From the NCBI RefSeq assembly GCF_041248615.1, contig NZ_CP158426.1: a DNA stretch of 64,000 nt. One strand, 5' to 3'. The DNA comes from Escherichia coli (GTDB lineage: Bacteria > Pseudomonadota > Gammaproteobacteria > Enterobacterales > Enterobacteriaceae). This document shows, piece by piece, positions 51,001 to 57,000 of the stretch (within the stretch, counting starts at the first letter, position 1; each line of letters opens with the position of its first letter). The position numbers are program-made.

Positions 51001-54000
51001 TGGAAACAGAAACCAAGTCGCTCTGATATGTGGCTACAAGCCCATATCATCCCCTTGGATGAGGATTGTATACCTATACAAGGGCTAAAGTTTGAACTGA
51101 AATGGAAACCAGATCAGGATTCAGAACCTGATGACCCGATTTCTTACCCTAAAATAAATATTATTGCTTTCTATCATAACAAGAGGGTTTTCGCGGTAGA
51201 TACCTATCACTTTGACAAACACACGAATAGTTACAAGGTCGATCATCCGAAGTACCAAGATATCATTTACGGTGCTCACTACCATGTATACTATGAAGAA
51301 GCTGGATACTATAGTGATAGAATAGCGTTTCCAATCGAAGATGACATAAACCCAGATGACCTGGTAGGGTATTGGAATTACTTCTGTAAACATCTGAACA
51401 TAACTTACTCTGGGAGAATACCTTTACCGCTTGAAGATGAGTCGGGGCAAATGGGGTTTGGAATATGATGTGCTCAACAGTGATCTCACAACTAGGTTTC
51501 GAATGCCATCCAATAGGCAAGACCTTGAGAATTATCAGTCCATTCACTTACTGTGATGATGGAGAGCATGTCGGTGCCTTTATCCGTGAAGTCAATGGTA
51601 GGTATTTAGTTAGTGACAGATGCGATGCCTTAATGAATATGGAGGCAAGAGGGATCTCGCTTACCAAAAAACGACTTGATGAGATACGACAATTACTGCT
51701 TAAAGAAGGCGCAGAACTCAATGCTCGAGGAGAAATCATTGCTTGGGCAACAGAAAAGGATGTCGGTGCGATTACATCGAACATAATTAGAGCTGGTATA
51801 CTCGCATCAACTTTGTCGTTAGACTGGTATCAGCCAGTTCAAGCTGAAAAGTTTGAAAGTATGGTTATTGATTATCTATATCACACAGAGCTTAGAGACG
51901 CACTTTCTCTTCGTGAAAACGTATATGGCTTGAGTGGACATCAAATTACCGTCCCTGTAACAATAAAAACCGACATACCTAAATACGTTTTTACATCAAG
52001 CGTGAAACACGGAGGAAGCTGGAATAGTGCTTACTCATTGCTTGGGAAACTAATTGATCTTAAAGCTTCAAGTGAGGAGTATAACAACAGATTTGTTGTT
52101 ATAGACAGCGAAGCAATTGGTGATCAAATGCAACAACTCTCCTTACTCTTCCATGAATCAAGCCAAGTTCTACCATTCTCCAAAAGAGAGACTTGGGTTA
52201 AGAGACTTGCAGCATAATACAACCCGGCCTCAGCGCCGGGTTTTCTTTGCCTCACGTTCGCCCACCTAAAAACACATAACCAATTATATTTATTGAAAAA
52301 TAAATAGATGCAACCCACTAAACCACGCAATTCTGATCTCTCCTTACATCGCCGAGGCAATACATCCACGCTAAAAAACAACACTATTAAATACAAAGCG
52401 TTATAAAAAACCACGCCAACTTACAACAAATTGTATTGATCTTGTAAAGTACATATCGTACTATTTAACCGTCAGCAGGACGCTGGAAGCCAAATGGAAC
52501 AGACTGGCAGGCTCTTTAAACAACGTCGACTCTCGACTACGTGGCTGAAAAGCCAGATCACCCAACCACATAAGCTGTGGGATGCAATGCCGAAGCAACC
52601 GTCTCAGGAGGAGCTTCGAGATTGCATCGCCAAAGTTTATTCGGGAGGAATCCATGTCCAGAAAAACAGAATTTAAAGGCACCGCAGCTTCTCGCCGTAG
52701 AGCTCGTCGCGCAAATCTGCAAAGTCAGGAGGCGATCAGCTCCGACAAGCTACACAGGCCAACCCCTTCACGAGTGGTCTTGCAATGCAAGCTCAAACCA
52801 GCAATGAGAGCAGAAGTGATAACTCTGACAACGTTGACCAGAAAATATGAAGGTTCAACTTGTCTTCCGAACGTAGCTCTTTACGCGGCAGGCTACCGGA
52901 AATCAAAACAACTGACGGCGAGATGATAAATTCATTTGCTAATTACTTGTTTTTGCCATGCTTATCCTGAGCGATAAGTTCATCCATAAGGCTGTCTGCC
53001 TTCCCGGCAAACCTAATGTAGCACTCATGTCTATAGCTTTCAGGGATAACGAAACGGTCGGTATCAGGATATCCAACAGCAGGAGGCCTTCGAACGAGGA
53101 GTCCTTTTTTGAGCAATGAAATTGATTCATGAGCGCCCTTTTCCGTTTGTAGCTGGTTATTAGCGGCTACAGCGAATGCCAAATACGCTCTTTCTCCAAG
53201 AGTTAACGAATCAAACAAATCTTGCACATATTTTTCTTCTTTAGATTTGCGCTTCTGAGCAGCGAATACCTCAATTCTTTCAGTCACAGCGTGATAAGCG
53301 GAATTAACAACGCCGTTAAGCACATAGCTAACGCAAAACAACAGGATGTAATACATCCAGTAATGAGGAAGGATTTCTGGACTATGCAGGTTTATCCATT
53401 CTTTTACGCTTACCGGCATAACAATAATCAATATGATCAGGATGATTAGCATATGAATCAACTGTTTAAGTGTCATTCCTTGCAGGAAAAAATGCATTAG
53501 TTCCTGCCACCATGAGTTGTTCATCGGCGTTTCTCTTTTGCTCTCTGTAGGGGTGAATAGAGTTTATCCGATTTCTCGTTGTAGGGGTACACGAGAACCA
53601 CCGAGCCTGATGTGGTTAAAAGACAGGCACAATCTTTACTACCGCAATCCACTATTTAAGGTGATATATGGAAGAAGAATTTGAAGAGTTCGAAGAGCAT
53701 CCTCAAGATGTGATGGAACAATACCAGGACTATCCGTATGACTACGACTATTGATACAAATCAATGGTGTGGACAATTCAAACGATGCAATGGATGCAAG
53801 CTGCAATCGGAATGCATGGTTAAGCCTGAAGAAATGTTTCCTGTAATGGAAGATGGGAAATATGTCGATAAATGGGCAATACGAACGACGGCAATGATTG
53901 CCAGAGAACTTGGTAAACAGAACAACAAAGCTGCCTGATAGTGGCCTTTATTTTTGGCATAAATAACAGAATAAACACTGCACTGTGTATTCATTCCAAC

Positions 54001-57000
54001 GAGTGAATACACGGAGCAATGTCGCTCGTAACTAAACAGGAGCCGACTTGTTCTGATTGTTGGAAATCTTCTTTGCCCTCCAGTGTGAGGGCTTTTTTAT
54101 ATGCATACCAATAACGCTTCACTCGAGGCGTTTTCGTTATGCAATCAAATATAAGGAGTTACCCATGATGCACTTTCAGCTCGCGGGTAGCGGCGTCATG
54201 TCCGCTTTCTACCCGCACGAATCTGAATTATCACGCAGAGTTAAACAATTAATCAGAGCAGCAAAGAAACAACTGGAGGCGTTATGCGCAATGAAATAGC
54301 CATTAATCACCAGATGCTTCGTGCTGCACAGAACAAAGCAGTAATAGCCAGATTTATTGGTGATTCAAAAATGTGGCTTGAAGCAAATAAAGCGATGAAA
54401 TCAGCTATCAACCTTCCGTGGTATCGCAGGAAATGAGTTTTACAGATAACTGGTCAGACGAAGAATTCATTCGTCAGATGAAAGAAATGCTCAATCAGCA
54501 CAAAGAACAGGAGAAAGATGATGATTCTGACTCTGAATGATAAGCGTGAAATATCGCAAATAATCGCAAGTTTTACTGATGAAGATTACGAACGAATCAA
54601 CAGTGAAGTTGATCGCCTCTGCAAACGTTGCGACCCAATAAGCGAAATGCTTCGCTCATATAAACCAGATGAACACACTAAGGACGCTATCGACTGGCTG
54701 GAAGATGATGACTGTAACTATCAGGAAAAAGCCGCTGAATGGTTCTGGGATGCAATAACCGAAAGAGTTAAGGCTGAATATGCCTTCGCAATATTCAAAC
54801 GCAGACACATTTATGGAGAAGCAGCATGAGCAATATCGTTGAATTCGTTAAACAGCAGGAGCAGTTATTCTGCGGGGCATTGACTGAACAGACGGTGACA
54901 TGGGCTAAGGAAAGCCAGTTTGCAATTCAGTATTTCCAGAAAAATGATTACCTGGCTAAAACAGCACTGGCAAATCCAACCAGCGCACAGAACGCCATCA
55001 TCAATGTTGCGGCGATCGGTATCACCTTAAACCCGGCTAGCAAACTGGCTTATCTGGTTCCGCGCGACGGCATGGTTTGCCTTGATATCAGCTATATGGG
55101 ATTGCTACATATTGCAATGGAGTCTGGTGTTATCTCATGGGGTCAGGCAAAGCTTGTTCATGCTAACGATACTTATGAGTCAAACGGACTTGATAAAGCA
55201 CCAACCCATAAATACAACGCCTTCGGTGATCGTGGCGATATCGTTGGTGTTTACTGCACAGTTAAGACGCCAGCAGGTGATTATCTAACGGAAGAGATGA
55301 GTCTGGCTGAAATTGAGGCTGTAAGGAAAACAAGCAAGGCGGCATTCAGCGATAAAGGACCATGGGTAAATCACTGGAATGAGATGGCGCGAAAGACGGT
55401 CGTAAAGCGTGCAAGCAAGTATTGGCCTAAGGCATCACGTCTTGATAGTGCTATTCACGTACTAAACGAAGAAGAAGGTGTATGGACTGAACCAGTTATG
55501 CCTCACAAATCAGAGGAAGATATCCGCGAAGATGAACGGAAACGCCAGCAGGAAATAACGGATAAAGCACAACTTCTTTGTGATGAAATGGCTCAGGCTG
55601 AAAACATGGATGATTTGAAGAGATATTTTGCAGAAGCATATCGCCTGACATCTGGAATGAAATTGCAGCAGAACATACAAGCCATTTACATAGAATGCAA
55701 AGCGAAACTGGAGGTTGCCAGTGAGCAAACTATATGAAATTGCCAATGAATACGCAAAATTGATGGATTCAGATTTAGAACCAGAGATGATTGCTGACAC
55801 AATAGAAGGCATGGAAGGAGAATTTACCGATAAAATAGAACAACTTCTTTCCGTCATTAAAAATGAATCTGGTTATGCCGAACGCCTCAAGGAAGAGGCA
55901 AAGTCACTAAATGAGCGAGCCGCAGTAATTCAAAACAAGATTGACAGCATCAAATCATATATAGCGTCATCGCTTGAAATGGTTGGAAAGAAAAATATTC
56001 GAGCAGGTATTCACCAGGTAACAATCCGCAAACCGTCAGAAACTGTAGAAATCATCGACTCAAGCGCCCTTCCTCCTGAATACGTTGAGTTCGAAACGAC
56101 AATTAAAGCCGACAAACTGGCAATCAAACACCAACTAAAAGCAGGAATAAATATCCCCGGTGCTCAACTCAAAGTTGGAAAACCTTCACTTCTTATCAAA
56201 TAACGGTATCGCCTATGAAAAAGACTCCATGGGAGAAATGGGAAGTCGATTTCTTGCGCGAGGTAGCGGCGACAATGCCAGTTGAAGTTATCGCAGAAAA
56301 ACTGGAAAGGACTGAAAAAGCAGTAATGGCGAAAGCAACAAGGATTGGCGCTGACATTGTTAGCCGACTTCGTGGAAGACGATGGACAAGAGCCGAAGTA
56401 TCACTTTTCGGTAAGTTCTCAGCAGAAGAAATAGCAATTGCAACCTGCCGCTCAATTTATTCAGTAAGAGCTATGCGATACAAGCTAAAAAAACTCGATG
56501 AAGAAAGAGCAGGCATACGAATAAATTAACATGGAGTAATTAACAATGAAGCTAAACATCGACCTCGGAAAATACGTTATTACCGGAACCAAACACGACC
56601 TGATTCTTAGTGAAAGAGGAATTATCAAAGAAGGCGAGAATGCAGGGAAAGAAACACTAAGCCGTATCGGTTATTACAGCAAGTTTGAGCATCTGGTTAA
56701 AGAGTTATGCAACCGTGAAATCCTGTTATCTCAGGCGCAGACGCTACAGGATATTCAGCAGCATATCGAGACTTTAGGTATGTCACTTAGCATGGCTATT
56801 GACCAGTTAGTGGAGAGTAAATCATGAGAGGACTTGCATACAATCCCGGAATTCTTCCGGCAGAAATGATTATTCGCCAACGCGTAAAGCCAATGCCATC
56901 GAGAGAGGAATTGCTTAAGAGAAATTCTTTTCCATCAGTGAATCAAAACAAATATCTGAATGCGATGTGGCGGAGTGGGAAGAAATGAAACAAATGTCAC

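What the first reader, a model, noticed from the sequence alone, without database searches (positions are those of the whole stretch)
53668..54436. Cluster of very small early-left ORFs including kil-like, cIII-like and an acidic 28-aa peptide
Below the track cutoff I read a 50-aa Kil-like ORF (IARFIGDSKMW), a ~44-aa CIII-like ORF (YPHESELSRRVKQL), and a 28-codon acidic frame MEEEFEEFEEHPQDVMEQYQDYPYDYDY at 53668-53754. A terminator hairpin (gccctc...gagggc then T6, about 54075-54100) separates them. Kil-type proteins are toxic to the host, so this is where cryptic host-takeover functions would sit.
Basis: partly seen in the sequence, partly recalled or inferred. Interest (0 to 1): 0.3.

Follow-up and report, generated by a model that had tools for sequence, protein, structure and literature searches.

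The report
Known lambda early-left small genes
This stretch of an E. coli prophage carries the well-known small early genes of phage lambda's left operon (orf28, ral, the PreS small RNA with its terminator, cIII and kil), so it is ordinary, although the 28-residue acidic peptide still has no known function.

Summary
All three ORFs and the hairpin are at the stated coordinates, in a lambdoid prophage of E. coli NRZ14408 (100% match). All are already known.

- **Kil-like ORF** (54284-54436): meets Pfam Lambda_Kil (E 1.7e-20) and is 47% identical to lambda Kil.
- **cIII-like ORF** (54165-54299): meets Pfam PF08134, the second cIII family, but not the lambda CIII model PF02061.
- **Acidic 28-codon ORF** (53668-53754): 100% identical in protein to lambda orf28 (NP_040623, phrog_16060), a non-essential gene of unknown function.
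- **Hairpin** (54075-54092 plus T6): this is lambda terminator tL2a. It is also the 3' end of the published Hfq-dependent sRNA PreS/LPR1, which raises host DnaN. The window differs from lambda at one base here.

New here, and modest: orf28 looks like a real, selected micro-protein gene.

- It is intact in 88 of 88 ral loci.
- 18 of 22 variant alleles fall at third codon positions.
- Its motif EEF..HP.D.M..YQ.Y.Y is kept just upstream of ral in Providencia, Proteus, Erwinia and Pantoea prophages.
- The link is not universal: Citrobacter and Kluyvera ral loci lack it, and some phages keep orf28 beside a deleted ral.

Verdict: already known, low interest.

The parts
52654..52926 (+). N antiterminator (context; start as annotated by PGAP, the longest ORF starts at 52582)
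   Evidence: PF25694 N_peptide, E 9.7e-33. RefSeq annotation of the identical genome.
52943..53524 (-). sieB superinfection exclusion gene (context), opposite strand. Its promoter maps to about 53561-53591 by homology to the annotated P22 sieB promoter.
   Evidence: PF14163, E 9e-22. Annotations in lambda, HK140 and P22.
53668..53754 (+). orf28: a 28-aa acidic/aromatic micro-protein gene, identical to lambda orf28 (lambdap47). It overlaps the ral start by 17 nt.
   Evidence: 100% aa identity to NP_040623. phrog_16060, E 7e-19. Intact in 88/88 ral loci, with 18/22 variant alleles at codon position 3, p 7e-6. Homologs upstream of ral in Providencia, Proteus, Erwinia and Pantoea.
53738..53938 (+). 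ral, antirestriction (type IA restriction alleviation) protein, 66 aa
   Evidence: PF11058, E 1.7e-48. 98% identical to lambda Ral. Annotated in RefSeq.
54011..54098 (+). PreS/LPR1 Hfq-dependent sRNA. The 5' end is estimated from the ~88 nt size reported for lambda; a processed ~68 nt form is expected.
   Evidence: Window 53936-54092 differs from lambda at one base, 54059 G versus A. Lambda LPR1/PreS lies between ral and ea10 and ends at tL2a. Fold -29.8 kcal/mol, z -3.3. Stem arms were fixed by the search pattern; the hairpin loop varies among the 139 of 222 held loci that match.
54075..54098 (+). Intrinsic terminator tL2a: 6-bp GC-rich stem, 6-nt loop, T6
   Evidence: Terminator scan. Fold. 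Identified as tL2a in paper 10.1101/2024.10.31.621285.
54165..54299 (+). cIII of the PF08134 family, 44 aa; presumed FtsH inhibitor that favours lysogeny
   Evidence: PF08134, 104.7 bits against cutoff 25. PF02061 only 12.4 bits against 25.7. phrog_550. Aligns to the lambda and P22 cIII core helix.
54284..54436 (+). kil, 50 aa; presumed FtsZ-ring/cell-division inhibitor
   Evidence: PF06301, E 1.7e-20. phrog_2055, E 1e-35. 47% identical to lambda Kil. Annotated as kil in RefSeq.
54433..54540 (+). Unannotated 35-aa acidic ORF, coupled to the kil stop by an ATGA overlap. It sits where P22 has arf.
   Evidence: phrog_17766, E 7.5e-16. Weak Arf match, phrog_2445, E 0.045. 94% identical to annotated Kapi1_014.

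Best explanation
The interval is the ordinary accessory-gene stretch of a lambdoid prophage's N-dependent early-left (pL) operon, in E. coli NRZ14408.

**Order of events after induction or infection (inferred from lambda).** Transcription from pL reads through N, runs antisense across sieB, and continues into orf28-ral.
- Ribosomes translate the 28-codon orf28 from a strong Shine-Dalgarno. They terminate 17 nt inside ral, so ral is probably translationally coupled to it. This step is inferred.
- Ral speeds de novo methylation by type IA restriction-modification enzymes. This is established for lambda Ral.
- Transcripts not modified by N stop at the tL2a hairpin. That 3' end yields the Hfq-binding sRNA PreS/LPR1, which base-pairs with host dnaN mRNA and raises DnaN to help phage replication. 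This is shown for lambda, and the sequence here differs at one base.
- N-modified polymerase reads on into cIII, kil, a small Arf-like ORF, a 103-aa gene and recT. cIII is an FtsH inhibitor that stabilises CII. Kil blocks FtsZ ring assembly and causes filamentation.

**orf28.** It is lambda orf28, a real and selected but functionally uncharacterised acidic micro-protein. It travels with ral as a two-gene module in most, not all, ral-bearing prophages.
For: **Source and neighbours.**
- 100% nucleotide match to E. coli NRZ14408, with RefSeq annotation of N, sieB, ral, kil and recT.
- Closest phages are HK140, ev207 and lambda.
- Family models pass their curated cutoffs for Kil, cIII (PF08134), Ral, SieB, N and RecT. 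PHROG matches agree.

**orf28 as a coding gene.**
- Identical to lambda lambdap47.
- Listed as a non-essential hypothetical protein in a lambda CRISPRi survey (PMC10695390).
- Intact in 88/88 ral-ascertained loci.
- 22 variant alleles in codons 2-23 fall 1/3/18 by codon position. 12 are synonymous against 13.6% expected, p 7e-6.
- Mosaic junctions in lambda imm21, HK544 and Sf101 fall about 24 nt upstream of the orf28 ATG, so orf28 stays attached to ral.
- Diverged homologs with the motif EEF..HP.D.M..YQ.Y.Y overlap the ral start in Providencia, Proteus, Erwinia and Pantoea, and in a lineage whose Ral differs far more from the window's.

**PreS and tL2a.**
- One substitution relative to lambda.
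- The paper identifies the region between ral and ea10, ending at tL2a, as LPR1/PreS.
- The fold has z -3.3.
- In the 139 of 222 held loci that match the core pattern, which fixes the stem arms, differences lie in the hairpin loop and after the stem.
Against: - No expression data exist for this prophage. Translation of orf28 and production of PreS are inferred from sequence conservation and from lambda.
- The C-terminal third of orf28 overlaps the ral ribosome-binding site and start, so part of its conservation is not about the peptide.
- The orf28-ral link is not universal. Citrobacter-type ral loci have a different 66-aa upstream gene and a Kluyvera locus has none.
- About a dozen IMG/VR loci and phage ECP1 keep orf28 beside a deleted ral.
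- The cIII here fails the lambda CIII model PF02061. Its FtsH-inhibitor role rests on the family name and on alignment of the core helix only.
- The window has a rare G at 54059, in the predicted single-stranded stretch of PreS (5 of about 140 loci). This could alter targeting.
Confidence: 0.9

Rival explanations
1. orf28 is translated only as a coupling device: a leader ORF whose translation opens or delivers ribosomes to the ral start. On this view the peptide sequence itself has no function.
For: - The orf28 stop lies 17 nt inside ral in every lineage examined, including the 56-aa extended version.
- ral has only a modest AGGA Shine-Dalgarno, embedded in orf28 codons 20-21.
- Ral loci without orf28 carry another tightly coupled upstream ORF with an ATGA overlap (Citrobacter).
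Against: - Amino-acid conservation extends across the non-overlapping N-terminal two thirds, with third-position-biased change.
- The motif is kept across genera with diverged nucleotides.
- orf28 stays intact in loci with several different ral lesions (at least five distinct downstream products; also ECP1).
Confidence: 0.2
2. orf28 is not translated at all. Its conservation reflects an RNA- or DNA-level element, for example ral leader structure or sieB promoter-distal sequence.
For: - PGAP does not call it in this genome.
- No translation data could be retrieved; the lambda ribosome-profiling paper is not held.
- The whole sieB-ral intergenic region is highly conserved.
Against: - The 1/3/18 codon-position pattern of variation, and 88/88 open frames with a conserved start and Shine-Dalgarno.
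- Protein-level motif conservation at 68-86% identity in other genera.
- By homology to the annotated P22 promoter, the sieB promoter lies about 80-110 nt upstream and does not overlap orf28.
Confidence: 0.07
3. In this prophage the hairpin is only a terminator (tL2a) and no functional PreS sRNA is made. Alternatively, the rare A-to-G change retargets the sRNA.
For: - The window carries G at 54059, in the predicted unpaired stretch; this variant is rare.
- The U-tail context differs from lambda: GGGC-TTTTTT here against GGGCGATTTTTT.
Against: - 87 of 88 positions are identical to lambda PreS.
- The U-run here abuts the stem directly, which should favour termination and Hfq binding.
- PreS is reported as conserved at 92% identity or more in about 2,500 genomes.
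Confidence: 0.12

Closest known systems
Bacteriophage lambda orf28 (lambdap47, NP_040623; phrog_16060)
   Same: 100% identical 28-aa product. Same position between sieB and ral, and the same 17-nt overlap with ral.
   Different: Nothing at protein level. There is one synonymous nucleotide difference in orf28 (CAA for CAG in codon 13). It is not annotated by PGAP in this genome.
Lambda Ral (PF11058), type IA restriction alleviation
   Same: 98% identical, same length and same context.
   Different: One substitution, K7T.
Lambda sRNA PreS/LPR1 and terminator tL2a (bioRxiv 10.1101/2024.10.31.621285)
   Same: Same location immediately after ral, and the same hairpin. 87 of 88 nt are identical.
   Different: A-to-G at 54059. 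The U-run directly abuts the stem. ea10, which follows in lambda, is absent, so cIII follows after about 65 nt. No Rfam family exists for it.
Lambda Kil (PF06301), ZipA-dependent FtsZ inhibitor (PMC3961180)
   Same: Family model met. 47% identity. It overlaps the end of cIII as in lambda.
   Different: 50 aa against 47 aa, with a divergent C-terminus. It is followed by a small Arf-like ORF and RecT rather than gam-bet-exo.
cIII protein family PF08134 (the cIII family distinct from lambda CIII, PF02061)
   Same: Strong model match. It has the position and size of a cIII gene, and a conserved core helix that aligns to lambda and P22 cIII.
   Different: Only about 30-36% identical to lambda and P22 cIII. 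It fails PF02061. RefSeq labels it 'hypothetical protein'.

Membership tests
Lambda_Kil (PF06301) | Sequence match to the family model above the curated cutoff | tested here: met
   72.6 bits against 27.6, E 1.7e-20. phrog_2055, E 1.2e-35.
Lambda_Kil (PF06301) | Small ORF in the pL operon immediately after, and overlapping, cIII | tested here: met
   kil start 54284 overlaps cIII end 54299. It is downstream of N on the same strand.
Lambda_Kil (PF06301) | Expression blocks FtsZ ring assembly and causes filamentation | not testable with these tools
   Known for lambda Kil (PMC3961180).
cIII family (PF08134) | Sequence match above the curated cutoff | tested here: met
   104.7 bits against 25.
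Lambda CIII (PF02061) | Sequence match above the curated cutoff | tested here: not met
   12.4 bits against 25.7. It belongs to the sister cIII family, not the lambda-type model.
cIII family (PF08134) | Inhibits FtsH and stabilises CII | not testable with these tools
   Only the core helix alignment to lambda and P22 cIII is available.
lambda orf28 / phrog_16060 | Sequence identity to lambda orf28 | tested here: met
   28/28 identical. phrog_16060, E 7e-19, full length.
lambda orf28 / phrog_16060 | Located directly upstream of ral, overlapping its start | tested here: met
   17-nt overlap, the same as lambda, P22, Sf101 and distant homologs.
lambda orf28 / phrog_16060 | Actually translated | not testable with these tools
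   Evolutionary signature only. The lambda ribosome-profiling paper is not held.
PreS/LPR1 sRNA | Sequence homology to lambda LPR1 between ral and the next gene | tested here: met
   One mismatch over 157 nt that include the sRNA.
PreS/LPR1 sRNA | GC-rich terminator hairpin plus U-tail (Hfq-type 3' end, = tL2a) | tested here: met
   Description in the paper.
PreS/LPR1 sRNA | Hfq binding and up-regulation of dnaN | not testable with these tools
   Shown for lambda only.
P22 Arf (Erf cofactor), considered for the 35-aa ORF after kil | Sequence match to the Arf family | tested here: inconclusive
   phrog_2445, E 0.045. 27% identity with a shared SDEEFI. Same position after kil. The best match is phrog_17766, of unknown function.

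The most novel reading that the evidence does not exclude
orf28 is not a passive leader. It would be a functional acidic/aromatic micro-protein (net charge about -12, no basic residues, invariant EEF..HP.D.M..YQ.Y.Y) that works with Ral. It might act as a cofactor, or as a nucleic-acid- or acidic-tail-like mimic aimed at the type I restriction-modification complex or another DNA-binding host protein. That would make 'Ral' a two-component antirestriction module that has been studied as a single gene since 1980.
Probability: 0.2. Interest if true: 0.5.

Novelty: already known. Interest (0 to 1): 0.15.

Why it matters
As found, it matters little. It is a correct by-eye recognition of textbook lambdoid early-left genes in a prophage.

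Two practical points follow:
- Automated annotation of this genome misses orf28, the 35-aa ORF after kil and the PreS sRNA, and labels cIII as hypothetical. Small-gene content of prophages is therefore under-reported.
- Lambda orf28 remains one of the few lambda ORFs with no function. The comparative evidence here gives a concrete reason to test it in restriction-alleviation assays: codon-periodic variation, motif conservation across five genera, and persistent physical coupling to ral. Classical ral deletions, such as the delta-orf28-ral strains in PMC2327257, removed both genes together.

Tried and rejected
- **Rfam.** A scan of 52300-55000 gave only two sub-threshold chance hits (snoR126, mir-15). 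PreS has no Rfam family.
- **Solved structures.** PDB sequence searches with orf28 and with Ral found nothing.
- **AlphaFold2.** I predicted orf28 joined to Ral by a 20-residue GGS linker, using a 21-row paired alignment. Mean pLDDT was 45.8 and pTM 0.29, with residues 1-74 below 50. This says nothing about an orf28-Ral contact.
- **A possible natural fusion.** An 89-aa orf28-Ral fusion protein (P0002) looked like Rosetta-stone evidence. It is one 1.2-kb Logan contig with a 1-nt deletion, and the other 75 cluster members are ordinary Ral. I rejected it as evidence.
- **Profile search.** An orf28-family profile against 1.84 billion proteins gave 28 hits. The 19 I retrieved were all the same ORF, gene calls extended upstream, or frameshifted or truncated variants of it; none placed the motif inside a known larger protein. 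The 56-aa version (L223/L224) still sits on ral.
- **Papers not held.** The lambda ribosome-profiling paper (PNAS 2013) and the Casjens and Hendrix lambda review were unavailable. A full-text search for the peptide sequence found no paper.
- **31-aa ORF at 54019-54114.** I considered it as a gene and rejected it. It lies inside PreS and its C-terminus is not conserved between the window, ECP1 and lambda.
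Full report
**Where the window comes from.**
The 1.5 kb around the finding is 100% identical to the chromosome of E. coli NRZ14408 (NZ_LT599825). It lies in a lambdoid prophage. On the + strand the order is:
- N (PF25694);
- sieB on the opposite strand (PF14163);
- the 28-codon acidic ORF;
- ral (PF11058);
- a hairpin terminator;
- a 44-aa ORF;
- a 50-aa ORF;
- a 35-aa ORF;
- a 103-aa hypothetical gene;
- recT.

This is the layout of lambda's pL operon. The closest sequenced phages are HK140 (98.6%), ev207 (100% across orf28-ral) and lambda (96.7-99%).

**Checking the observation.**
ORFs of this size are common by chance: there are 64 ORFs of at least 20 aa in 3.3 kb. Their reality therefore rests on homology.
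- The 50-aa ORF passes the Pfam Lambda_Kil model (72.6 bits against cutoff 27.6) and is 47% identical to lambda Kil.
- The 44-aa ORF passes Pfam PF08134, 'cIII protein family' (104.7 against 25), but not the lambda CIII model PF02061 (12.4 against 25.7). It aligns to the core helix of lambda and P22 cIII.
- RefSeq already calls kil. It calls the cIII ORF a 'hypothetical protein'.
- The acidic 28-mer is residue-for-residue lambda orf28 (lambdap47, NP_040623) and has its own PHROG, phrog_16060, of unknown function.
- A lambda CRISPRi survey lists orf28 as a non-essential hypothetical protein (PMC10695390).

It lies between orf28 and the hairpin, and orf28's last 17 nt overlap its start.

**The hairpin is tL2a and the 3' end of an sRNA.**
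From the ral stop to the end of the stem (53936-54092) the window differs from lambda at one base. A 2024 preprint (10.1101/2024.10.31.621285) reports the following for this lambda segment, which lies between ral and ea10 and ends at terminator tL2a:
- it produces an Hfq-dependent sRNA, LPR1, renamed PreS;
- the RNA is about 88 nt and is processed to about 68 nt;
- it is expressed in the lytic cycle;
- it base-pairs with host dnaN mRNA to raise DnaN and support phage DNA replication.

A 2025 review repeats this (PMC12197685). The corresponding window RNA (about 54011-54098) has three predicted parts: a 5' stem, a single-stranded stretch, and the terminator hairpin (-29.8 kcal/mol, z -3.3). A pattern that fixes the PreS core and both stem arms matches 139 of the 222 loci held; among those matches the hairpin loop and the tail after the stem vary. 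Rfam has no model for PreS.

Compared with lambda, the window lacks ea10. Compared with ECP1 and Kapi1, it lacks an 82-aa gene in the same slot. As a result cIII follows PreS after about 65 nt.

**Is orf28 a real gene?**
I collected ral loci independently of orf28: lambda, P22, ST64T, Sf101, 1NRH, HK140 and 80 IMG/VR contigs found with a Ral alignment.
- In 88 of 88 loci the frame is open with an ATG start and a purine-rich Shine-Dalgarno.
- In codons 2-23, upstream of the ral ATG, the 22 variant alleles fall 1/3/18 on codon positions 1/2/3.
- Twelve of them are synonymous, against 13.6% expected at random (binomial p 7e-6). Most of the replacements are E/D exchanges.
- In phages that lack sieB, the mosaic junction sits about 24 nt upstream of the orf28 ATG, so orf28 stays with ral.

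More distant Ral homologs came from a protein search, and I read their contigs. Providencia, Proteus, Erwinia and Pantoea prophages all carry a 22-30-aa ORF overlapping the ral start, with invariant EEF..HP.D.M..YQ.Y.Y. A profile of the family searched against 1.84 billion proteins returned only this ORF. One version is 56 aa, with a Cys/His N-terminal extension, and it still overlaps by 17 nt a Ral homolog whose sequence is far more diverged from the window's.

**Limits of the orf28-ral link.**
- Citrobacter-type ral loci have an unrelated 66-aa upstream gene coupled by ATGA, and a Kluyvera locus has nothing there.
- In a set ascertained through an orf28 DNA pattern, roughly 12 of 115 evaluable loci, plus phage ECP1, have an internally deleted or frameshifted ral next to an intact orf28.
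- The last third of the peptide overlaps the ral RBS and start, so that part is doubly constrained.

I conclude that orf28 is very probably translated and that its sequence is under selection. It is probably translationally coupled to ral. Its biochemical role remains open.

**Attempts at the function of orf28.**
All of these were uninformative:
- no PDB sequence relatives for orf28 or Ral;
- a linked orf28-Ral AlphaFold2 model of very low confidence (pLDDT 45.8);
- an apparent natural orf28-Ral fusion that is a single short contig with a 1-nt deletion.

The idea that a peptide with net charge about -12 and rich in aromatic residues acts as a nucleic-acid or acidic-tail mimic alongside Ral is my speculation. 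No data here support it.

**How the region most likely works.**
In lambda, pL transcription is extended by N. By inference the same holds here.
- Early transcripts express orf28 and ral. Unmodified transcripts end at tL2a, releasing PreS.
- N-modified polymerase continues into cIII, kil and the recombination genes. cIII is an FtsH inhibitor that favours CII and lysogeny. Kil inhibits FtsZ in a ZipA-dependent way and causes filamentation (PMC3961180).
- The functions of Ral, PreS, CIII and Kil are established for the lambda proteins and RNA, and inferred here from homology.

**Verdict.**
It is best summarised as 'lambda orf28-ral, PreS/tL2a, cIII, kil'. The one open item is the function of orf28. 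The comparative data here strengthen the case that it is a genuine, ral-associated micro-protein. Novelty: already known. Interest: low.

Noticed in passing
window 54433-54540 (+): A 35-aa acidic ORF (MSFTDNWSDEEFIRQMKEMLNQHKEQEKDDDSDSE) starts in an ATGA overlap with the kil stop. It matches phrog_17766 (unknown function). It shares an SDEEFI N-terminus with P22 Arf and sits where arf sits in P22. It is annotated in phage Kapi1 (Kapi1_014) but not by PGAP in this genome.
   Followed up: partly
window 54093-54164: An empty accessory-gene slot between the PreS/tL2a hairpin and cIII. Lambda carries ea10 here. ECP1 and Kapi1 carry an 82-aa acidic gene with its own terminator. The window has neither, and the junctions are sharp.
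   Followed up: partly
L091 (phage ECP1) 826-1060; IMG/VR loci L124, L135, L139, L151, L172, L181, L186, L192, L194, L201, L206: ral is internally deleted or frameshifted in several different ways, while orf28 immediately upstream stays intact (shortened by two residues in L192).
   Followed up: partly
L219, L222 (Citrobacter-type) 1004-1204; L220 (Kluyvera): These Ral homologs lack orf28. The Citrobacter-type loci instead have an unrelated 66-aa gene (MAKITFGFC...) coupled to ral by an ATGA overlap. The Kluyvera locus has no upstream small ORF.
   Followed up: no
L223/L224 1501-1671: A 56-aa protein with a Cys/His-containing N-terminal extension (…HCGKC…HVC…) fused to the orf28 motif. It has a strong Shine-Dalgarno and still overlaps a much more diverged ral by 17 nt.
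   Followed up: partly
window 54059: A rare G (lambda and most relatives have A) in the predicted single-stranded stretch of PreS. It is seen in only 5 of about 140 loci. It might affect target pairing.
   Followed up: no
window 54113-54132 (+): A second hairpin (AACGCTTCACTCGAGGCGTT, then TTCGTT) lies about 20 nt upstream of the cIII Shine-Dalgarno (32 nt before the ATG) and is conserved in ECP1. It could be a weak terminator or a structure that affects cIII translation.
   Followed up: no
L003 (GenBank J02459, lambda) 1624-2794: Product labels in the original lambda record are shifted by one gene in this region. The orf28 CDS is labelled 'ral', cIII is labelled 'kil', and gam is labelled 'bet'. 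The mislabel has propagated to the UniProt name of orf28 (Q38269_LAMBD).
   Followed up: no
window 54019-54114 (+): A 31-aa ORF (MSLVTKQEPTCSDCW...) lies inside PreS and runs through the terminator. Its C-terminus differs between the window, ECP1 and lambda, so it is probably not coding.
   Followed up: partly
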